This document shows positions 32,923 to 48,179 of a DNA stretch of 64,000 nt, one piece after another; the stretch's first letter is position 1; every line of letters begins with the position of its first letter. This stretch comes from Tilletiaria anomala UBC 951. Lineage: Eukaryota. The stretch covers positions 124,001-188,000 of the forward strand of contig NW_013547017.1 in assembly GCF_000711695.1 (NCBI RefSeq), given 5' to 3'. Made by a program: the position numbers and the translations under genes. The notes under the pieces were generated by a model. That model did no database searches, was not told the DNA's origin, and was given only the letters and a program-made list of their open reading frames with translations.

Positions 32923-35900
32923 ATGAGCTATGAGTCCAGCCCGAGGCGCTCGCCGCGCAGAGCCCGACACTCTATGGCAGCAATGACGTCCAGCGCTTCA
33001 AAAGAGAATACACCAGCTACATCAGCTGGTAGCGTGGCGGGTCGCTTCAGCGATGTTCATAGCAGATTTGATACGAAGGCAAAGTCGAAGATGAGGATGT
33101 CACTGCCTGCAGCGTCCGCAGTGAGCGTCAGCGTCGGCACCTCTCGACGTCAGCTTGCACCGCGCAAGTCAGCCCTCAAAGCGACGCAGCAGGTCTTTCA
33201 GAGCCCCACAGGGCTGGTCGCTAGTCCAATCAACAGGCCGACTCGCGGGCAAACGATGATGATCTACGGGACGAGTCAAATGCCAAATATTGATGACATC
33301 TTCGCCGGATTCAGTCAGGAAGTCGGGGAATCCGAAGTCAAGACTGCGCCAATACAACCAGTATCTCGGGATCGAGAACCTAGCGAATCGCAGAAGCAAG
33401 CAGGTCGTCCACCACAGGCGTCTGAGAGAAAAATGGAAGAGGAAAGCGAAAATGAGCCAAGGCCGAGGAAGCGGAGAGTGACTTTCAGCAGGAGACAAGA
33501 AAAGACGTGAGTGCCTGTTCTGACTTATTCGACTGCTGCGCCGAGACGACTGACCACCTATTGCAGGGACTTCATTTCTGACGAGCCAACGATGAGCATT
33601 CGGCCTGCTAGCGAGTACGAACCCGCCGCGTCTGACACCAGTAACACTCAAAGCAGCGCTGCCCAGGCCCAAGATCAAGAGAGTGAAGACGAGGACGATG
33701 ACAGCGACAGCGACAGCGATTCCGATGTTGAGGAGTACAGGAAAGCCAAGCGGAGGGCCGCCTCAGCGGAAAGCTCTGATATGGACATCATCACAACAGC
33801 GAACCTCACTACGTACACGGGCTATGCTTTCACTGACACGTCTCTGGGCGACGTGGATGATGACACAAGGACCATGGAATTCACTACTCCTTTCGCTGCT
33901 GGAAACCATCGCGATTCGATTGCAGGCGAAGCAATGGATATGGACCTTACAGCTCCATTCGGAGCAAGATCCGGCCGTCAATCCACGGGGAGCGAAACAG
34001 TCGACATGGACCTTGACGAAAGCAGCGCGAGTTTGCATGATGACTCGGTGGAAGGAGCTGGAGGAGACCGGACTCAGACGATGCAGTTCACTGGCGTCTT
34101 CCACAGCATAGGTTGTGACAGCGAGGGAAGCTACCGCACCGAGTCGTCCACTACGGAAGTCCAAGAAGATGCGGAGCGAGAGGAAGGCGAAGCAAGCATG
34201 GAGTTCACCCAGCCCTTCACTAGCGGCAAGGTGGACGAGGGAGGACTGTCTCGCATTTCGGAGGAGGATAGTGCAATGCTAGAAGAAATATCACGACAGT
34301 CTGTCACGATGGATTTCACAAGGCCATTCAATTCGGTCGCTCAAAAACTGCAGCATACCGAAAAGGTCCGTCGGGATACGCAGAAGCATTTCGAGGAACG
34401 AGTCGGTGACACCACGCCCGTCAGAGCACCGCGGACTTCTTCCAGCGGCTCACAAACATCGACGCCCAATCGTATCCGCGACAAGATTCCATTCGGACAC
34501 GCCTCACCAAACTACAAGCACTCACCAGCGCGACGGGTGATGCCCAGTGAAGCAGAAGAGCCGAAGCCTTCCCCTAAGCGCAGCCCACGCAAAGAGATTG
34601 TCGTACCAGCGCAAAGTCGTCAGTCCCTTTCAGCCATTCCTCCGCATGTATTCACGCAGCAACCACGCCACAGTGGAGACAGCTCGCTCGAGTCCGCCAG
34701 CAGCAACTTCTCAGCACGAGTGCTGCCAGACATGCAACTCACTTTGCAGAGCTTCTTGGATGCCATGGGGTTGAAGTTTCAGGATCAGTTGTCCGCGGTT
34801 CGACCCCGTGTCGCTCGCCCGAACGACCTCGACCACGGCCGGCTTGGGCCTAATGTTGTCAGGTGGAGCAAAGTGGCAGCTGGCGGCTCGGTCTTGCTGG
34901 AAAATCTCAGCAGGTCCTGCAAAGAGCTCGAGGGACACATTGAGACAAGCCGCGAGGCCTTGGCAGAGGTTGCGAACCAATTCGACGCGCAACCGCCCGC
35001 CTATGCACGTGATGTCATGTCCTACCCGCCTGAGATGGAAAAAGAGAGGAAGCTGATAGAAGTGAGTGGTTACGTTGCGAAGTGCTTCCTTCGCAGATTC
35101 TCATCCTGCCCATCCGCCGATTCCACAGGCTCAATTCAAGCTTCAAAAGCAGTGCGCTCGCGCCCATTCCGTTGGACAATACTACGGCTGGCGTCTTGAT
35201 AATGAATACGACGAAGACACAGTAAAGCGCCTGCAAGCAAACAGACGACGCCTCGACGAAGATGCGGCAAAGTTGGCTGCCAAGTCATTGAGGCTTCGCG
35301 AAGAATTGCTGCCGGAGCTGAGAGCGCGTCATGCGCAGCTCAAGGCTGAGCTGCAGGCAGAGAAGCTGCACCAGGCAGCTGTCGCGGCCAGCGATCAGGA
35401 AGAGCTCGGCGGCATCCATGCGGCTATCGAAGACCAAATGTGAGCACATGTGTTGGAGTACTAGTGGCTTATGGACTTTCACTGATGAGCATATTCATCC
35501 CACAGGAACATGCTTGAAAGCTTCCGTTCTGAAAACAGAGAAGCATTGGAAACACTGGAACGAGTGCAAGCACGGGTGAATGAACAGCTCGAGCGCAAGC
35601 ACGCTGCCGAGGATGGAATTGCAGCGGCGCGTTCTGCATGCGAGCAAATCAAGGGCTTTACACGGGGCGAAGCTGCTCGCCTTCTGAGTGAGTGCAACAG
35701 AAAAGAAGCAAAACTGTTAAGCGACTGCTGATCGACGTTCCGTGCTTGAATAGGCGAGATCCGGAGCATCGAGCAGGCGCACCTGTGGACCCTCATCTCC
35801 GCCACGGAGACACATATCGCGCTCCTGCACAACAGTGTTATCGACGTCAATCTCAACATCAGCGTTGAAGCGCTTGTTCAGTCTGTGTCAATCACATCCC

Positions 35901-36439
35901 GGGCGTCGTCAGACAGGAACGGTCTATACGCATTCGTCACTGATGCCTTGCAACATTCTTTCAAATGCAGCGGTGTCTTGAAGCCCATGGAAGCCGTGCG
36001 GCGCATCTCCAATGCTTTCACGGCTCAGCGACACTTGCAGGCTGAAGTTGATGCAATGTTATCCTGTTTCCCGACCGAAGTGGCCAAGCTCAGCGATGAG
36101 GGGGTGCAAGTCAAAGCCAGTGTGCTACTGACCAAGAGGAAGGCGAAGCTTAGGGTGCTGGCGCCTTGCAAGCGCGATGCGCTGATCGCCGGCAGCGCCA
36201 TCCTTTTTCTGCCCGAGGAGATCCAGGTTGAGCTGGTCTACGGCTCCGTTGAGTGAGTACAGAGTCGGCTTGCCGAATGTAAAGATGCTCCTGACCGACT
36301 TTTACGCTTGGTATTCTCGTCTCGCGTATTTAGCGCTCCAGCTGTGCAGGCGCAAATTGCAGACATGCTGGGCGCTGCTCCTAGCCTGCGAAGCCTTGCT
36401 CAAGCTTGTGTCAAGTCCATTGCCACGTTTGATGCCTAA
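32923..36439 (+). CDS. SPC105: Kinetochore scaffold Spc105/Spc7/KNL1
   Basis: PP1-docking RKSALK and KRRVTF; MELT-like repeats (MDIIT, MEFT, MDMDLT, MQFT, MEFT, MDFT); Spc7 region LTLQSFLDAMGLKFQD...QFKLQKQCARAHSVGQYYGWR; coiled coil and RWD-like end; about 5 introns. Confidence 0.88.
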
Positions 36440-38192: not shown

Positions 38193-40937
38193 ATGACCAC
38201 GGGCAGCCCTCCCACATCTGGTGGACTTGCCGTCAAACCGCCACCACACGCAGCAAAGGGAACTGAAGAGACGGACAGAAGTAGTTCTTGGGGGTCAGTA
38301 GCGGAGGAAAGAAGGATGCAGCACAGCGTGGATGCCATGAATCGGGTGGGTGCTGAGGGCAGAGGGACCGGACCTCTATCGCGGAGCGACAGTTCCTCCG
38401 CAATCAGGGACATCTCGCCTAGACCGCCCACGGACCGCACCTCCTCCCCATCCATACTCACAATCATGCAAGACGGCTTCGGACAGCCGTCTTTTCCTGG
38501 CTCTCGAACTGGATCCGGCCCACAGCGCTATGCATCACCTTATCCTGACAGGGCTCGCTCTCCATCACCCAGCAAACGCTCGTCGACAGGAGCACAGCAG
38601 CAGCCCCAGCATCCAATGCCACAACAGTACCAGCAACAGCAATCGCAGCAGCAGTCTATGTTTGGACGACCTGGCGATCCAGGTCCATCGCCTTGGGGGC
38701 CGCAGACGCAACTACCAGCACCACGGAGACCGGTGAATGCATCAAATCCAGGGCAGTCGGTTGCGCAAGGCCAAGGTCCTTTCGGCGCCGAGCCTTTTCT
38801 CGGTTACAACGATCTGTTTCTTGCAGGCATCAATCCTGGGCCAAGGCCTCAAGCGGAGGATTCTGAAGGCGATGGAAGACCTACAAGGGCTGAAGACTTG
38901 GCGGAGACACTAGGGCGCTTGGACATGCAGGGGTCACTCAGAGACGTTGATGTACCTGGCTCTGCTGCTCAGGGCCCAGAGGGCTTTCCGTTCCCGCCTC
39001 CAGGCATGGCTATGGTTTCAGGGATGCCCAACGTCCCTGGGCTACCAGCTTCTGGGAGCCTCAGCCCTCGCAGCCTACTGCATTACCATCACCAGCAGCT
39101 GCAGGCGCAGCACGCTCTCGCCCTTCAAGCAGCTCAGCAGGCAGGTGGGGCGCATCACTCGATGGCAGGAGGTGCGTCAATGCAGGAGGAGATCACCACG
39201 GTGTTCATCGTTGGATTCCCGGACGACATGACGGAGCGCGAGTTCGCGAACATGTTTCTGTTCGCCAAAGGGTTCGAGGCATCCACGCTCAAAATCCCAG
39301 CTGGTGGTATGACAGGCACCGGCCAGAGTGGGCAGCGGGAAAGCTCTGTTTCAGGGCCACCAGGGCCGTACAACTCGGTGCAGTTGCAAGGAATGGCGCC
39401 TGCTGGATCCAACAGTGGACCCAGCTGGGATGAGCAAGCACTCTCCTTGGCTCTGGTCCGCGCAGGCGCAGGTCATGATGCCTTTGCGAATCTCGGCGCG
39501 GGCGCAGGTCTCCCCGGCTTTAATTCAAACAGCCAGGGGCAACCGGGTGGCAAGATCAAGCAAATCATCGGCTTTGCCAAGTTCCGTACGCGCCAAGACG
39601 CGCTTGAGGCTAGGGATGCGCTCAATGGTCGCAAGATTGATGCGGAGCGCGGATGCGTGCTGAAGACGGAGATGGCGAAGAAGAATCTGCACACGAGACA
39701 GAGGCCGGCACTTACGCTTGGGATAAAACCAGGCCCGCACGGTGTCGACGGGGGTTACGGCGCGCTGTCGCCTTATGCAGGCAGCGCTATGGGCGACAGG
39801 GACCCAGCACATGCTTTTGGCTATGGCTCTCGCCCCCCGCCACAGCCCTCTCAGCCTGGCCAAGGAGGATTCGTCGGTCAGCCACAAGGCTTCGACCGAC
39901 AAGGCGCTTTGCCACAGCAGGAGACATCCATGCGGCATACAGAGCTTCTCCGAGCCTCTGGGACTGGCGCGAGCAACCCGTCCCAGTCACAAGCACCGGT
40001 CAACTTTGCTCAACCTCAGGAACGCTGGGCGCCGATGGGGCCGCTCGACTTTTATAACGACGAGGCTGATCGAGCGGCGCAGCCCTCCGCGCGATCGGAT
40101 TGGGGGTCCGTCGGCTCGCCGCCGGCACGCCATCCTCAGCCGCGAGCGCCGGGCCTTGCACCTGTCAATTCGATGCTGCCAGGAGCGCCCTACGCTGCTG
40201 CTACAGGCGCTCGGATGCGACAGGGAGAGGATTTTGGAGTGGGGGAGCTGAGACAAGAAACACACCCAGACAACAACATCAACAATAGTACCAGGCCCAA
40301 TCAGGACTTGAGTAATCTTCTTAATGATCAAGCTCAAGCTTCTCGCCCTGGTCCGCCTGGGCTCGGCTCCCCCAACGTCGCAGATCCGTCTTCGGCTGAC
40401 CAGCGGCCGCAAGCGAAGAACGAAGCTTCGGCGCCGCGTTCACATCGATCTGGGAGCACCCCAAGTCCACCCAGCTCAGAATTACCTAGTCCGACTCATC
40501 GGGGCTTTGTCGGCGACCAGCATCCTCCCGGTACTACCCTCTTCGTCGGCAATCTTCCCGCTAACCTCTCATCTGCTAGCTCTGCTCAGCTCGAGGAGAA
40601 GCTGCGAAGCCTCTTCAGCAGTCGTCAAGGTTTCCGCCAGATGTCTTACAAGCTCAAGGGGCACGGACCGATGTGCTTTGTCGAGTTCGAGAGCATCTGT
40701 CATGCGCGAAATGCGCTGACGGAGGTCAATGGTGACTCCCTCGGTGGGTTGCTGAAGGGTCAAGGGATCCGACTGAGCTACTCAAAGAATCCGCTCTTCC
40801 GGCATAGCAATGCCAACTCTTCTCCGCCCGATCAAGGCACCGGCTTGAATGGATTCCACTCGCCTCAAGGGCCACGAGGGGCCATGTGCGAGGACGTACT
40901 CGACATGGACAAGCTGAATAACCTTGAAGAGACGTGA
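38193..40937 (+). CDS. WHI3: Whi3/Scw1-type RNA-binding protein (two RBPMS-like RRMs, Q/P/G-rich)
   Basis: RRM1 EEITTVFIVGFPDDMTEREFANMFLFAKGFEASTLKIP...KQIIGFAKFRTR...VLKTEMAKKNLH; RRM2 DQHPPGTTLFVGNLP...GPMCFVEFE...GIRLSYSKNPL. First in-frame ATG is 38193. The stop TGA overlaps the LTO1 intron donor. Confidence 0.88.
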   Translation: MTTGSPPTSGGLAVKPPPHAAKGTEETDRSSSWGSVAEERRMQHSVDAMNRVGAEGRGTGPLSRSDSSSAIRDISPRPPTDRTSSPSILTIMQDGFGQPSFPGSRTGSGPQRYASPYPDRARSPSPSKRSSTGAQQQPQHPMPQQYQQQQSQQQSMFGRPGDPGPSPWGPQTQLPAPRRPVNASNPGQSVAQGQGPFGAEPFLGYNDLFLAGINPGPRPQAEDSEGDGRPTRAEDLAETLGRLDMQGSLRDVDVPGSAAQGPEGFPFPPPGMAMVSGMPNVPGLPASGSLSPRSLLHYHHQQLQAQHALALQAAQQAGGAHHSMAGGASMQEEITTVFIVGFPDDMTEREFANMFLFAKGFEASTLKIPAGGMTGTGQSGQRESSVSGPPGPYNSVQLQGMAPAGSNSGPSWDEQALSLALVRAGAGHDAFANLGAGAGLPGFNSNSQGQPGGKIKQIIGFAKFRTRQDALEARDALNGRKIDAERGCVLKTEMAKKNLHTRQRPALTLGIKPGPHGVDGGYGALSPYAGSAMGDRDPAHAFGYGSRPPPQPSQPGQGGFVGQPQGFDRQGALPQQETSMRHTELLRASGTGASNPSQSQAPVNFAQPQERWAPMGPLDFYNDEADRAAQPSARSDWGSVGSPPARHPQPRAPGLAPVNSMLPGAPYAAATGARMRQGEDFGVGELRQETHPDNNINNSTRPNQDLSNLLNDQAQASRPGPPGLGSPNVADPSSADQRPQAKNEASAPRSHRSGSTPSPPSSELPSPTHRGFVGDQHPPGTTLFVGNLPANLSSASSAQLEEKLRSLFSSRQGFRQMSYKLKGHGPMCFVEFESICHARNALTEVNGDSLGGLLKGQGIRLSYSKNPLFRHSNANSSPPDQGTGLNGFHSPQGPRGAMCEDVLDMDKLNNLEET

Positions 40938-41477
40938 GTTGAGCCTGTGAATGGTGTGGAGCATGGCCATTTTCTCACACTATCGTTCTTGATCGATCTT
41001 CCACGCAGCGCATTTGGGCATGGATACGCTGGCGGCTTCACACATGGAGCGCTGCATGGAAAGTTCGAAGGCCGGGCGTTGGGCCGCGAGAAGGGTTTCG
41101 ACATTTGGGGCGAAGTAGGCTACTACGAAGGGATGGCGGCGATGTGGCAGCGGTTGTTACAGGACGGGACATCAGAGCAGGACCGATCGCGCAAGCAGAA
41201 CAAACAGATGCAACAGATTGGCTCCTTGCTCGAACTCATCGTTGCGTTTCCGACACGCAACGACGCAGCCGGTGGAGGGAGTCAGGATCAGTCGCCAGAC
41301 CTTGGTCAGCTGTTGGAGCGAATCCGAGCACGATTCAAGCTCACTGCTTCCACCTTGGGTTTCCATCCGAGCGATGGCCCATTTGCCGCAGGAGCAGACC
41401 TGGGGCCAGGAACGTCGCAGCCGCAGCTCGCTGAGATTGGCGGACGCCTGGTAGATACATCTAGACTGCGATATTGA
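40884..41477 (+). CDS. LTO1: Lto1/ORAOV1 (Yae1_N, deca-GX3) CIA Fe-S targeting adaptor, ~172 aa if translated alone
   Basis: Exon 1 40884-40933 (MCEDVLDMDKLNNLEET), intron 40934-41008, exon 2 AFGHGYAGGFTHGALHGKFEGRALGREKGFDIWGEVGYYEG (GX3 repeats), FPTRND, LLERIRARFK..LG, aromatic C-terminus LRY*. Confidence 0.88.
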
Positions 41478-42576
41478 AGAGCAAAGCATTACGCCCCTTC
41501 CCGTGCTCCAGCCTGCCCCCAAGCCAGAAAGCAAGACCGCAAGCAACACAAGTATCGCATTCATGTCCACACTTCGCATTCACCCTCCGGCGGAGGCCGC
41601 AATAGGAGCAGCAAAGCCTGACGCTGCATTCGGCGTGCAGTCGCTGTTGAACCTCCGGCCCATGCATGCAACAACGATCATCAGCCCGTTCCTCTTGCTT
41701 CATTTGGATCCGCACACAATCACCACGTCGTACAGCTTCCACAATCTTCTGAACAACAAGCATCGCAGCAGGACAAGGCTGTCCGCCTTGGAAAGCCATA
41801 CTTCCTTGTTGTACTAGTATTCGCAAGATCGATCGCTTCAAGCCTCCCACCTTTCGAATCTCAAGCGCACACAATTGCAACAAATGTCTTCTCCTCGCTC
41901 TCTCGCTCACTGTCACAAAACAACACAATACGCCCTTCAGACTACATTCGCCTATCATACGTTCATCAATATACGTTCACAAACGCACGCACATAAGAAA
42001 TGACATTATCAACAATGACAGCTACAACAATTCCTCCTTTCGGTTTTTCTCGATCCATTTCGTACATTCCGAGGGGAGGGCCACCCGCTCTCTGTTTTCG
42101 TCAGATTTGTCTGTTATTTTGCGCTGTAATCATACATTGTAGGACAATGGTTCATTTGCATGCTTTCACCGCCTATTTCACAATCGTATTGGAAGAGGGT
42201 TCATTGCCGGTAGTTGTGGCCCTATGACGCTCTCTCTCCTCGCTTATGCGTGATGTGCGGTGGGCGGTGGGGACTGACATGCATAGTGCAGCGAACCGGA
42301 ACGATAAACAGATAAACACCGAACACGAGGCTAAAAGCGGTCACAAGTATCATCGCATCCACGTTTGTTGCCTCCAAAAGCCATTCACAGACAACAGCAG
42401 ACCCTGGGCACACCTCTTCTTCGCTTCAAGAAGGCTCCGCAGCCTTATTGCTCACTTGATTGCTAAGAGAGACGTGGGCCTTCGAGATCGCGTGCAGCAG
42501 GTCCAATCCTCTTCGTCGGCACGTTGATGCCTCCTGGATTTGGAGCATCTCCGTAGCTTCCGGGCGTCGCTGGAAG

Positions 42577-44926
42577 ATGAGCGCCACGGATGGAGGCAAG
42601 GAAGGATCGGTGAATGAGCAGCAGCTGCTCGGTTCGTGCTCATTAAGGGCTGACCCTAGCGATGCACAATGCCCAACTGAATCTGCAGGTTACATTCCTT
42701 CGCGCAATCGCCAGGCGTCGACCATTCTGCCACCTGCGGCCTTCTTTGCTCCCAAAAGGCCTTCTCAGCAGCCACGGTCGCCTGGGCTACCGCCCACTCC
42801 CTTGTCGGCAAACAGCTTCGCTACGGCTGGAAGCTCTTCGTACCGCGGCCCGCTTAACCCAGGTGATCTGAGCTCCTACCAGAAATCTCCCCTTCAGGCG
42901 CAACAAACGCAGCGGCCACAGTCGCCTTGGTCTCCTGGGCAAGCGAGGGTGTCAACAATAGCCTTGGGTTCGAATAGCATCTATGACGTGGCGCCAGAGG
43001 CGGCTCAAGATGATGGAACAGTGGAGCAGTCGCCTGTGACCCCATCAAATGGGCACCTGAGGGGTCGGCAAGGAGGTGTGGCCTTCAAGACTTCCCGCGA
43101 ACCGCTCTTAGACATGGAAGACCCAGATGCTTTGACGGAAGTGGGTACTCCAAGCGCCTTTGAAGCTCCTATGGACGCGCAAACAGAAGCGGATGGAATG
43201 GCAGCCTTGCAGCTTGCTGGGATCGACGGCAGACTGAGTTGCAACCTCCAAACAGGCTCAGGCGATGGAGAAGACGGCGATGGTGACGATGACGACCTCG
43301 AGCATCAGCCGCTTGGGAACAGGCAAAATCAGGACCCGCTGATGGATGTCATCGAGCACGCACAGGGATCCCGAATGCGATCCGCCGATCAAAGCTTCGA
43401 GCCGAGGACGGGCAAGGCGGAGCGCATGCTAGGAGGAATCAGGATCTCTTCAAGCCCGAGCTTCTCTGATGCGCAACAAAATCCTTCCAAACGGCGGAGT
43501 GTCAATATGACACGTGCAAGCGTCTCAAATATAGAGAAAGGCTTGAATGGTGGCTCTGCTGTGGATGGAGGCAGTGGAAACATCTCGGGCGCGCGGGGAA
43601 GCAAGAAGGAGCGAAATTTCAAGTTCCACAAAGGCGGTAACCGTTTCTTTTTTGGCGGGATCATCATGACCTCGCACGCCAATCCCATGCCATTCCTCGC
43701 GAGCTTCGCATTAACACTCGCGCTGCCAGGCTTGTGGTTAGGTTTCGACGCGTCCTACACGGTGCACAATATCAGCATCGCACCTGTCATCATCCTCTGC
43801 TACACGACTGCTGTAGCCGTCACCAACATGCTGTAAGTGCATCTCTTTTCGCTTGCTCAATATTTTCTCTGGTGTTGATTACAACTATCCACGCATTGCA
43901 ACAGCGTGACCGCCTGGCGTGATCCAGGTGTTTTGCCCCGCGACTTAGACCCAGATCCTCCGTGTACACTTGGCGAAACCCTCGGGGCAATGGATCCAGA
44001 AGACCCACTGGCCATTCCGTTACCCCGCACCATTCAAGTGCGCGGTGCTAGAGATCTGAAAGTCAAGTGGTGCGAAACTTGCGGAACGTACAGAGCGCCG
44101 CGAAGTAGTCATTGCCGAATGTGCGACAATTGCGTTGAAAACATCGGTAAGTGTGTGCACTTTGGTAGCATGATGCACTACTGAACAGCGCCTACCTGTC
44201 ATCCTTTCTTCAGATCACCACTGCACTTTCCTTAACACCTGCATCGGCCGCCGAAACTACAGCTCGTTCTTCTCTTTTCTGATCTTCACGCTCCTTTCAC
44301 TCTGCATCATGATTGCCTTCTCTATCCTGCATCTATATTTTCTCACCCGTCCCACCACACAGCGGCTTCCGAAAGCAGGCGCGTATGGCGGGGGGCTCGA
44401 TTTTCGACAAGCGCTCGGTCGCTCGCCCGTCAGCGCCGTCGTTGTCATCCTCTCCTTGGCCGCCATGTGTCCGATCGGCATGCTATTTGGCTACCACGCC
44501 TGGCTCGTCGTGCACAATCGCACGACCGTCGAGCAGATCCGCTTCAACGCCGCACGCGAGTACGGCGAGCAGCCGGTGGATACGGGCGGCGAAGAAGAGA
44601 AGCGCTGCCTCTTCTTGCCAGGCAAGGCGGGCCAATTGAGCAGGTCGGATCCAAACCCGTTTTCATATGGCGGGTTTGTCAGGAACGCCATTGCTGTGCT
44701 TGGCAGGCCGATAAGCGACAGTTGGATCGCAAGGTATGAACACAGGGTAGTGGATGAACGACTGGACAACCCTGCCTGGTCGATGCAACGACATGTTTCG
44801 GCTGCCAATGGCGATAGCCCCCATGTCGCTGGCGATGGCACTGGTTTCCAAACGAACGACTTCAGCAAGAGGCCGCTGAATGGAAATTTCGGCTCGGAGG
44901 CGATAGAGATGCAGGAGCGCTCTTGA
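42577..44926 (+). CDS. ERF2: DHHC palmitoyltransferase, Erf2-like
   Basis: GNRFFFGGIIMT, TAWRDPGVLPR, KWCETCGTYRAPRSSHCRMCDNCVENI|DHHCTFLNTCIGRRNY, NRTTVEQIR, NPFSYG. Introns ~43833-43904 and ~44147-44212. Start uncertain. Confidence 0.92.
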
Positions 44927-45093: not shown

Positions 45094-47305
45094 TTAAGCG
45101 AGCTGTTCGCCTTGAAATAGAGCGACGCGCGGCTTAGCGCCGCTGAGCGACGAGATGTAGCCTCTGTTCATGGTTGTAGAGTTCATTGGGAAGGTGACTG
45201 CAGAGCGGCGGAAGGGCAGACCAAATTTGGTATATATCACGTCAGCTGTCCCTCAGGCCATGCAAGCCACCAGAAGGGTATGCTCACCGTTCCCAGTGTG
45301 GTCGAGCACGATGGCTCCGCCTACACCTGCATTGCGACCGAGCTCTTTGATCGCTGCTTGGCCCGCTGTAGCTGCATCTTCGGCCAGGAAGCGCATGCGG
45401 TGAGCGACGAGCGACGCCAATGATACTAAATTCGTCGAATTCGTGTTGAGTGGAAGTGAAAGTGAAGTTTCTTGATGTCAACGCACCACAGCAGCGACGG
45501 GGAATTCGAAAGACTCGTCACGAACCTCTGAGAAAGTAGTCACCATCCCCCGTTCCAGACAACGCAAGACCTCTCTCATCGGTACTTTTCCACTTCTCAA
45601 CGCCAGCCGAGTCGCGGCAGCCGTCCTTGCGAGGCGATAGACAGGCACAGGCTGATAAGCAGTTCCAGAAGCAGGACAGCAGAGAGGAACAGGGGGAGGC
45701 CCAGCAGGTCGTGCCATCCATCGGAACTGCGTCGACTTCGTATTGCTTCTCAGCCGCCTTCTCCTTGCTGTCACCGCCGTCGACGACAAATCTCTCAGCC
45801 CAGAAGCCCGCGCCGACTGATGGTGTATCGCCCACGCGTCCTGTATTCTTGTTGGTCTTGCCACCGGTGGACGTCGCGACAGCGAGTCTCCCCTGCGCGT
45901 CGATGGCGCATGCACCAACAGTCCCTTGCGGCAGGGCGGAGGAATCAAAGTGAGCCGAGAACTGCTCGAAGACCTCGGCATCTGGGTGGCGAGGGGAGTC
46001 GGTGCTGGTTTCAGAGCGTTCGTTTCCGTGCAAGGAGGGTGGGGAGGAAGAGGGTGAAGTTGAGGCTGAAGCTGCCGTCAAACTTGGTGTGCGGTCGTAG
46101 TAAGAGGAAGGCGGTGTGCTTTCTGTCTGCGGAGTCGTTTGTAGGGCTGCATACCGCGATGCCGATGGCGCCGATGGCCACGAGCTGGATGCATCAGGCG
46201 CAGCTGCTCTGTCGACTGACCCGACACTGCGTATGGCGCTGCTGTACGAAGGCGGCGGCGCGACGTGCGCTGCGGAAGGGCAGGCTGGAGTTGGTGCTTT
46301 GAGTGCGCTGACGAGGAGGTTGTCGGTGTATCCCTGAAGGCCATTCGGGTCTCTGATACCATGCTTTCTCACTTTACCCTCTCTCTCATCATCATTTTCA
46401 TCATCACTATCACCTTCGTCAACGTCATCGTCATCGTCATCTGGCAAGCCGAGTCCACGCCGATGCTCCAGCCACCTCTTTCGGGTCCAGTAGTAGTCAT
46501 TTTCCACTTTGGTGCAGCCGTACTTCCATCCGATCTTCTCGGCTTCCATCCCGGAGAGCAGAACGTGCGGCGCATCTTCCGGAGAGAGGTAAAGAGTGCG
46601 CGCGAGCAGGATCGGGTTCTTGGTCGCGCGGACGAGGGTCGCTGCTGCACAGCGCCGCGTCGCGGGGAGCTGTTGCGTATTGAAGTTGGAGTACGAGGCC
46701 GTTGTTTGCGGAGGGTTCAACATCAGAGGCTTCTCGGAGAGCAATTTGGGAAGAGATATCGATCTTTCGGACGGTGGACAGCCGCGGTGGAACCATTCGT
46801 TGTCGTGCATGACAATCGGAAGGCCGCAAGCGGAGAGGCCCTTTTCGATTTCTCCGCTCCGAGACACGGAAGTGGAAGGAAACGAGACCATGACACTCGC
46901 CTCGCACTCGACCTTGCCGTCCTTGGTGAAGACCGCGCCTTTTCCAGCGTTGAACAGCGGACTGTCCTCAAGCACCTTGACAGCGGCGCAGACGGCGTCC
47001 AGTGCGTTTCCGGCGCCGCGAAACGCTCCACCGCGCGATGGTGAAGACGGAGCATCTTCATCTTCATGATGCGTTTCGGGTCCATACAATTCCGAGGCGC
47101 TGGAAGCGGCAGATGGGAGACCCTGTTCGAGCACACGGTAGCCGGCTTCGAGGGCGGCGCGCAGACGCGCGCGGTATGCAGCCTGCAGCACCGGTGGGAT
47201 GTCTGGCGTGATAGTCCCACCCGCACCACCGTGAATAGCCAGTGTGATGGGAGGTCTATGCAGGCTGTCACCAGCTCTTTTCGATGAACGTGCAGAGGCT
47301 GTCAT
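45094..47305 (-). CDS. Type-2 (plant-type, Ntn-hydrolase) asparaginase / isoaspartyl peptidase with large insertions
   Basis: LAIHGGAG, ALDAVCAAVKVLEDSPLFNAGKGAVF, KNPILLAR, nucleophile G-T-VGACAID, ATSTGG..GRVGDTP, SGTGDGDYFLR, TMNRGY; two 3' introns. Confidence 0.9.
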
Positions 47306-48179
47306 ACTAGGGCTGGGATGAGGGCGAGGTTGCTGATTATGAATTATGGTCGGGCGGCCGTCGGGCTCGCCCACTTGTACATCGACGAGCATGTTGGCGC
47401 GTGTTGCGTGCAGCTTTGAGCTTACGGTATCCTGAGTGGGAGCGGCGCAATGGATCTTTAGTTTACGCTTGAAGGGAGCGAGCATCTGCCGTGGGAGGAG
47501 CCAGCCAGCGTCTATCAAGTCGATGTCGGCAGTCAGGGAGCGGCGGGGTTAAAGGCGACCAGGTCAAAATCTATCTGTGCGCACCAGATGAATATTTCCT
47601 GCAGCGCAACGCACTACCAGCAGCCCAGGGTCAGGAAACCCGCTGCCCATGCATGCGAGAACCGGGTACGGAAACGATGATGATTATTTCTACGGCCCAG
47701 CGCCCAGCACATGAAGCGTATGTGGCCCTAGTTGTACCTCTCGAGATTGGCCTATGGTGGCGATAAGCTGCTACTGACCCGTTGTCATCGACTAAGCTTG
47801 CGTCACAAAACAGGCTTCGGTTCATGAAACGCAGGCAGCGGGGAGCGGACACATGCGAACCCAAACTAGAATAGGGTTGCCGTTATCGTTACCATTACCC
47901 CGCAGTGGTCGAGCCATCTTTCATTTGATGCCGTATTCAGTTTCCCATGGCGTGAGAAAGGGCAAACAAACATCCGTGAGCGGTGTATACATACGTTTGC
48001 ACGGGTTATCAGCTCTCACTGTCATCGACTCTCTCTCGTCTCCAACGGACTCACCCTGCGAAGAAGTCACGCGACAGAATTGGATTCATGCAGTCGCTTG
48101 CCCCGGCCATCACCGCCGTAGCAATCCAACCCAGCCCCGGCGGCACCGCTCCGAGTCAAGGTTCCAGCTCGGATCTCCG

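What the first reader, a model, noticed from the sequence alone, without database searches (positions are those of the whole stretch)
38193..41477. Whi3/Scw1 RNA-binding protein reads in frame into LTO1: a splice-controlled fusion
Seen: after RRM2 the Whi3-like ORF has no stop and continues ...GPRGA-MCEDVLDMDKLNNLEET. This is the typical Lto1 N-terminus. Its stop (AC|G TGA GT) lies inside the 5' splice site of a 75-nt intron (40934-41008) whose removal is needed to make Lto1. Known: Lto1/ORAOV1, with Yae1, recruits the ribosome-recycling ATPase Rli1/ABCE1 to the cytosolic Fe-S assembly (CIA) targeting complex via GX3 repeats and an aromatic C-terminus, whereas Whi3/Scw1 bind and regulate mRNAs. 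Inference: one locus can yield free Whi3 (intron retained), a ~1069-aa Whi3-Lto1 fusion that keeps the aromatic C-terminus (spliced), or ~172-aa Lto1 from ATG 40884 if there is an internal promoter. This could physically couple mRNA fate to Fe-S loading of the ribosome-recycling machinery.
Basis: partly seen in the sequence, partly recalled or inferred. Interest (0 to 1): 0.9.

Follow-up and report, generated by a model that had tools for sequence, protein, structure and literature searches.

The report
Whi3–Lto1 fusion gene in smut fungi
In this fungus and many related smut fungi and Malassezia yeasts, the gene for an mRNA-binding protein (Whi3-like) runs in frame into the gene for a likely iron-sulfur delivery adaptor (Lto1-like), so one spliced message likely makes a single two-part protein; no sign was found that splicing switches the fusion on and off.

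Summary
The Whi3-like frame runs without a stop into an Lto1-like start, and an RNA contig shows the 75-nt intron (40934-41008) spliced out exactly, with no sequence difference. The fusion is not a quirk of this genome: 16 distinct relatives across Exobasidiomycetes and Malassezia carry both domains in one protein, against 0 of 111 named Whi3 relatives outside Ustilaginomycotina. In 5 of the 16 the nearest in-frame Met lies 88 or more residues upstream, so no normal free Lto1 can start from AUG. Ustilaginaceae and one Malassezia-like locus type keep the genes adjacent but separate, so linkage is dispensable. The 'splice-controlled' reading is unsupported: no contig covers the intron, its splice sites are ordinary, and 6 of 14 other spliced introns here have the same stop-forming donor. 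Best reading: a constitutive, lineage-wide fusion like S. pombe Tpt1-Yae1, with Lto1 at the C-terminus where its aromatic end stays free. Minor retained or internally started forms are not excluded. Searches found no paper on it, although public gene models already contain it.

The parts
38193..40933 (+). Coding exon 1: Whi3-like protein, linker and first 17 codons of the Lto1-like part; no intron seen inside; start codon uncertain (first ATG 38193, public model 38466)
39186..39695 (+). RRM1, RBPMS/Mec-8 type, split by a low-complexity insert; kept in all full-length fused relatives
40524..40802 (+). RRM2; confidently folded in the model; not detected in Tilletia and Malassezia fusions
40803..40883 (+). 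27-codon open linker, predicted disordered, colinear with the closest relative P0013
40884..40933 (+). Lto1-like N-terminus with in-frame ATGs at 40884 (not conserved in P0013) and 40905 (conserved in P0013) and the Asp 13 residues before the first GX3 glycine
40934..41008 (+). 75-nt phase-2 intron, GTGAGT donor holding TGA 40935-40937, TTGAT branch-like site at -20, CAG acceptor; spliced in the RNA contig
41009..41477 (+). Coding exon 2: deca-GX3 motif (Yae1_N 41022-41138), helical Lto1-like domain, C-terminal Leu-Arg-Tyr and stop
41478..41952 (+). Likely 3' UTR: the spliced contig runs on to 41952; contigs cannot show a true RNA end

Best explanation
WHI3 and LTO1 share one open reading frame here, and the spliced message likely makes one Whi3-Lto1 protein constitutively, as an old Ustilaginomycotina gene fusion that is likely a passenger arrangement rather than a splicing switch. 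Shown: open frame, spliced intron, conservation of fusion or adjacency across the subphylum. Inferred: the N-terminal part binds mRNA as Whi3/Scw1 do; a disordered linker leaves the C-terminal helical domain free to pair with Yae1 through its GX3 motif and to dock on the CIA targeting complex through its terminal aromatic residue, so the fusion supplies the cell's Lto1 for loading Fe-S clusters onto Rli1/ABCE1. Inferred origin: the genes became tandem neighbours in an Ustilaginomycotina ancestor and LTO1 came to use the WHI3 promoter and start codon; the N-Whi3/C-Lto1 order is tolerated because Lto1 needs its C-terminus, not its N-terminus, free. Whether the split state in Ustilaginaceae is ancestral or a reversion is open.
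For: RNA contig: only the spliced joint, no cover of the intron (bin depth 143 equals 241.3 x 109/184). 33 of 387 fetched proteins hold both RRM and Lto1 parts; after removing this organism's own record, 10 same-cluster duplicates, 5 Ustilaginaceae merges and 1 multi-gene merge, 16 remain (9 NCBI models, 7 Logan/JGI ORFs). 0 of 111 named non-Ustilaginomycotina Whi3 relatives match the Lto1 profile. DNA: 14 of 80 LTO1 loci have WHI3 RRM1 1.3-1.6 kb upstream on the same strand; they fall in 5 types, 4 of which read as fusions: L012 one uninterrupted frame 1-2640, L010 via a 70-nt GTAAGT..CTAAC..CAG intron with no ATG model after the stop, L013 and L048 via two canonical introns. Nearest Met 88-117 residues before the first GX3 Gly in 5 of 16 fusions, against at most 54 in 70 free Lto1-like proteins that begin with Met. 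20 of 20 fused or adjacent Lto1 domains end Leu-x-Phe/Tyr. Fused and adjacent Lto1 domains form one group of 34 rows (100/98, midpoint root). Precedent: S. pombe Tpt1-Yae1 domains need not be linked (PMC12810181); N-terminally HA-tagged Lto1 was used in PMC4523923.
Against: The RNA evidence is one run of contigs; the 8732-nt contig also merges upstream genes, so it does not prove one transcript, and contigs drop rare forms. No protein-level data. Gene predictors over-merge in these genomes (Hus1 joined in P0002 and P0005, a further gene in P0130, four different junctions in five Ustilaginaceae merges), so NCBI models alone are weak. In this species ATG 40905 could still start a free Lto1 that keeps the conserved Asp. 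Most fused lineages with DNA-like records keep at least one junction intron whose retention stops translation (P0013-P0016, P0263-P0267, L010, L013, L048). No whole genome was available to exclude a second LTO1 copy.
Confidence: 0.62

Rival explanations
1. Splice-controlled switch: the fusion is real, but regulated retention of a junction intron makes a substantial pool of free Whi3 and so sets the Lto1 dose.
For: Junction introns are kept in a complementary way: this species has only the intron inside Lto1, L010 only the linker intron, L013 and L048 both. The retained-linker-intron ends of P0014, P0260 and P0263 stop 6-7 residues after the same SLGxAxESL-type motif after which free Ustilaginaceae Whi3 ends, so a retained form would resemble a natural Whi3. 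RRM1 is of the RBPMS/Mec-8 type, whose animal members regulate splicing (recalled).
Against: No contig covers the intron. Donor, length and branch site are ordinary, and 6 of 14 other confirmed introns have GTRA donors. GCAY/CAC motifs are not enriched in junction introns. In P0011, P0385 and P0386 the apparent linker intron reads through in frame with no stop, so retention would not free Whi3.
Confidence: 0.18
2. Two overlapping genes: LTO1 is made mainly from an internal promoter and ATG 40884 or 40905, WHI3 ends at the TGA in the unspliced intron, and the fusion is minor.
For: Two in-frame ATGs at a typical Lto1 start distance; Met 40905 is kept in P0013 and three of four Tilletia clusters. 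L002/L007-type loci have a WHI3 stop 68 nt before an LTO1 ATG, so an internal promoter or two-gene message exists in some relatives.
Against: No intron-retaining contig; linker colinear with P0013 and Met 40884 replaced by Leu there; 5 of 16 fused relatives and locus L010 have no nearby ATG.
Confidence: 0.1
3. Functional coupling: the fusion is selected because it tethers the Yae1-Lto1 adaptor, apo-Rli1 and the CIA complex to Whi3-bound mRNAs or granules.
For: Fusion retained across many orders, with RRM1 kept even where RRM2 is lost; Whi3 enters P-bodies or stress granules (PMC3875557 abstract); the partner Yae1 is fused to another RNA-handling protein in Schizosaccharomyces.
Against: Split in Ustilaginaceae and in one Malassezia-like type; linker of variable length and predicted disordered; Tpt1-Yae1 linkage proved dispensable.
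Confidence: 0.1

Closest known systems
Schizosaccharomyces Tpt1-Yae1 fusion (PMC12810181; abstract, first part of the text and 8 passages read)
   Same: A small deca-GX3 adaptor subunit sits at the C-terminus of an unrelated RNA-handling protein in one fungal lineage.
   Different: Here the subunit is Lto1-like, the partner is an mRNA-binding protein rather than an enzyme, the range is a subphylum, split relatives keep the genes adjacent, and introns lie at the junction.
Lto1/ORAOV1 of the Yae1-Lto1 adaptor (PMC4523923; 12 passages read)
   Same: Deca-GX3 motif, Asp 13 residues before the first Gly, terminal aromatic residue.
   Different: Carries about 900 extra N-terminal residues; ends in Tyr (relatives 14 Phe, 6 Tyr of 20) rather than Trp.
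Whi3/Scw1/RBPMS-type RRM proteins (PMC8437301, 3 passages; PMC3875557, abstract)
   Same: RBPMS/Mec-8-type RRM in a long Q/P/G-rich low-complexity chain; orthologues are named 'related to WHI3' by their sources.
   Different: C-terminal Lto1-like domain, absent from 111 of 111 named relatives outside Ustilaginomycotina.

Membership tests
Lto1/ORAOV1 | Deca-GX3 motif | tested here: met
   Gly at 9 of 10 positions 22-58 of the 172-aa form, Trp at the eighth; Pfam Yae1_N above cut-off
Lto1/ORAOV1 | Conserved N-terminal Asp (yeast D4, 13 residues before G17 per PMC4523923) | tested here: met
   D9 is 13 before G22; Asp in 18 of 20 relatives
Lto1/ORAOV1 | C-terminal Trp (Phe in some organisms) | tested here: inconclusive
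   Tyr here; 14 Phe and 6 Tyr in 20 relatives of the same group; yeast Leu1 W779F/Y variants kept part of their in vivo function (PMC10245660 passage)
Lto1/ORAOV1 | Orthology to named Lto1 rather than Yae1 | tested here: inconclusive
   No named reference was returned: no PDB hit, Atlas clusters carry only Yae1_N, which covers both; assignment rests on the two features above
Lto1/ORAOV1 | [quoted passage not shown] | not testable with these tools
   Needs complementation or pull-down
Canonical TCR signal | [LIM]-[DES]-[WF] at the C-terminus | tested here: not met
   Leu-Arg-Tyr; motif from PMC10245660; at most a degenerate version
Whi3/Scw1 (RBPMS-type RRM) | RBPMS/Mec-8-type RRM | tested here: met
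   All 4 PDB hits are Mec-8, RBPMS or RBPMS2; relatives named 'related to WHI3'
Whi3/Scw1 (RBPMS-type RRM) | Binds and destabilises target mRNAs | not testable with these tools
   Needs CLIP or RIP
Tpt1-Yae1-type passenger fusion | Both domains in one frame across a lineage | tested here: met
   16 distinct fused relatives, 4 of 5 locus types
Tpt1-Yae1-type passenger fusion | Domains work when unlinked | tested here: inconclusive
   Naturally split in Ustilaginaceae and L002-type loci; not tested in a fused species
Regulated intron-retention switch | Retained isoform present at a measurable level | tested here: inconclusive
   Not seen, but contigs drop rare forms and only one run is served
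Regulated intron-retention switch | Splice signals weaker than or unlike the genome's other introns | tested here: not met
   Common GTGAG donor, 75 nt within the 60-114 range, branch-like site at -20

The most novel reading that the evidence does not exclude
Smut fungi make their Lto1 as the tail of Whi3 and keep a junction intron as a valve: regulated, possibly Whi3-controlled, retention shifts output between free Whi3 and a Whi3-Lto1 form that brings Fe-S loading of the ribosome-recycling ATPase Rli1 to Whi3 mRNA granules, and Ustilaginaceae fixed the retained state by losing the donor.
Probability: 0.15. Interest if true: 0.82.

Novelty: new variant of a known kind. Interest (0 to 1): 0.5.

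Why it matters
It would be the Lto1 counterpart of the recently described Tpt1-Yae1 fusion: both halves of the adaptor that loads Fe-S onto Rli1/ABCE1 have been attached to RNA-handling proteins in separate fungal lineages. It is a shared genomic character of Ustilaginomycotina with natural fused and split versions, which makes the question 'does linkage matter' testable. Practically, WHI3 knockouts in these fungi would likely remove or disturb an essential gene and be misread, and many public gene models split, truncate or mis-end the protein, including this species' own model, which drops the aromatic C-terminus.

Tried and rejected
No whole genome is held, so a second LTO1 copy and YAE1 could not be sought. 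Only one run holds the stretch and it is kept as contigs: no raw reads, no retention level, no start sites; no RNA holder on record as RNA was listed. PDB profile search for the Lto1-like domain: no hit to E=1. Atlas: family-level only. The supplement of the M. sympodialis proteogenomics paper PMC5389616 (one file, 14,595 characters held) had 0 hits for six terms; files of the store that gave no answer may hold more. Earlier findings: none by sequence or words. Paper searches with 0 hits: Lto1+Whi3, Lto1+Ustilago, Ustilaginomycotina+gene fusion+RRM; some searches listed papers but none on this fusion by title or start of abstract; subscription papers are not searched. Autoregulation by GCAY/CAC motifs in the junction introns: no enrichment. 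Five Ustilaginaceae 'fusions' (P0246, P0358, P0365, P0366, P0372) rejected as predictor merges: four different junctions and an own Met in each. Fused models for L002 need weak donors and none exist in the 94% identical L007, so that type is read as split. Only 6 of the 14 WHI3-adjacent loci were splice-modelled or read in full frame, covering all 5 types. P0019 (Ceraceosorus) joins Whi3 to both ends of Lto1 but its model skips the GX3 part, so it is not counted among the 16. No complex prediction was run, since binding between the two halves is not claimed.

Full report
Observation. Pfam finds an RRM and Yae1_N; the first RRM matches only Mec-8 and RBPMS structures (4 of 4 hits), the type to which Scw1 and Whi3 belong (PMC8437301 passages). 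A database protein 100% identical over exon 2 is named by its source as a Tilletiaria anomala model that already joins the two parts (P0001), but it uses an extra predicted intron that replaces the aromatic C-terminus.

RNA. One run holds the stretch. It is spliced at 15 listed joints over 28-48 kb (7 more not shown), so it behaves as RNA. One contig matches 37000-40933 and 41009-41952 with no differing letter and a single joint at exactly this intron; no contig covers the intron, and the extra intron of P0001 is not used. Limits: the contig also runs through upstream genes, so it is no proof of one transcript, and contigs drop rare forms.

Is the stop in the splice site special? No. Any phase-2 intron with a GTRA donor puts TAA or TGA in frame; 7 of the 15 confirmed introns, this one included, have such a donor, and length and branch site are ordinary. 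The open 27-codon linker is also unremarkable alone.

Relatives, proteins. Three homologue searches, one representative search and three cluster look-ups gave 387 proteins; 33 hold both parts. Dropping this organism's record, 10 same-cluster duplicates, 5 Ustilaginaceae merges and 1 multi-gene merge leaves 16: Parajaminaea, Jaminaea, Sympodiomycopsis, Tilletiopsis, three named Tilletia clusters, two Malassezia, and 7 Logan/JGI records. The Logan/JGI/ENA records look like uninterrupted ORFs, since several run into an apparent intron and stop (P0013, P0015, P0016, P0264-P0267); this is my inference. None of 111 named Whi3 relatives from other fungi matches the Lto1 profile. In 5 of the 16 the nearest in-frame Met is 88-117 residues before the first GX3 glycine, inside RRM2, against at most 54 in 70 free Lto1-like proteins that start with Met. 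The closest relative with a linker, P0013, is colinear through it, has Leu where ATG 40884 gives Met, keeps the Met of 40905, and stops at the same place when unspliced. RRM2 is not detected in Tilletia or Malassezia fusions.

Relatives, DNA. Of 80 metagenome loci with an LTO1 relative, 14 have WHI3 RRM1 1.3-1.6 kb upstream on the same strand; of 23 loci with 5 kb or more upstream, 9 have it and 14 do not, and those 14 match best to proteins other than the fused or adjacent ones, most of them placed outside the group in the tree. The 14 adjacent loci are 5 sequence types. L012 is one frame, 1-2640, from RRM1 to the Lto1 end (DNA or RNA cannot be told). L010 fuses through one canonical 70-nt intron and has no ATG model after the Whi3-frame stop; L013 and L048 fuse through two canonical introns but also have a Met near the Lto1 start; the L002/L007 type has a true stop, 68 nt, and its own ATG. 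In Ustilaginaceae the two genes have consecutive locus tags, Whi3 mostly ends in Arg-Arg and Lto1 has its own Met. A tree of 55 Lto1 domains puts fused and adjacent forms in one group of 34 rows (100/98, midpoint root, poorly resolved inside). Class relationships in the subphylum are unsettled (PMC7451774 passages), so I cannot say whether the split state is ancestral or derived.

Mechanism. Shown: one frame, one spliced intron, conserved fusion or adjacency confined to Ustilaginomycotina. Predicted: RRM2 and a helical C-terminal domain fold confidently, joined by a low-confidence linker (residues 775-811 of P0001; pTM 0.37 overall). From the literature: Lto1 pairs with Yae1 through GX3 and binds the CIA targeting complex through its terminal aromatic residue, N-terminally tagged Lto1 was used (PMC4523923 passages), and C-terminal extension kills such a signal in Leu1 (PMC10245660 passages). 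The C-terminal domain has the GX3 register and the Asp 13 residues before it, and 20 of 20 relatives end Leu-x-Phe/Tyr; it is not a canonical TCR tripeptide, and no named Lto1 or Yae1 reference was available, so I call it a likely Lto1. Inferred: the fusion supplies Lto1 constitutively from the WHI3 promoter. Natural splits, and the dispensable linkage of S. pombe Tpt1-Yae1 (PMC12810181), favour a passenger arrangement (0.62).

Against: no retained contig, ordinary splice sites, no motif enrichment, and in-frame read-through in P0011, P0385 and P0386.

Novelty. Both proteins and this kind of fusion are known; this pairing was not found in print (0 papers; nothing relevant by listing; subscription journals not searched), though public gene models contain it unnamed. 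New variant of a known kind; interest 0.5.

Noticed in passing
window 35684-35782 and 36064-36132, minus strand: Two introns spliced on the minus strand lie over the 3' end of a plus-strand gene that looks like SPC105/KNL1 (33511-36256; name recalled from its repeats, not tested). The spliced antisense RNA has no ATG-started ORF over 93 aa: a possible antisense non-coding transcript running away from the WHI3 promoter region.
   Followed up: partly
P0001 versus window 41440-41817: The public model uses a predicted intron that removes the Leu-Arg-Tyr end and adds about 100 unrelated residues; the RNA contig is continuous there.
   Followed up: yes
L002 5579-5648; L007 6720-6789: In this Malassezia-like type WHI3 stops only 68 nt before the LTO1 ATG, and LTO1 has both junction introns; LTO1 needs a promoter inside WHI3 or a two-gene message.
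   Followed up: partly
P0002, P0005, P0130: Malassezia gene models merge neighbouring genes (Hus1 upstream, another gene downstream) into the WHI3-LTO1 locus; HUS1 appears to be the upstream neighbour.
   Followed up: no
P0009, P0017, P0117, P0147, P0005, P0321; loci L002-L013, L048: The second RRM is not detected in Tilletia and Malassezia although the fusion is kept; it is strongly diverged in P0274 and P0278.
   Followed up: partly
P0260 with P0105; P0263: Early-branching Ustilaginomycetes-like Whi3 records end just after the same motif with an intron-donor-like Val-Ser, so they may still splice into LTO1; no DNA was available to check.
   Followed up: no
window 42460-44926 (+) and 45518-47548 (-): Downstream neighbours look like a DHHC palmitoyltransferase and an asparaginase-family protein (recalled from motifs, not tested); ordinary.
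   Followed up: no
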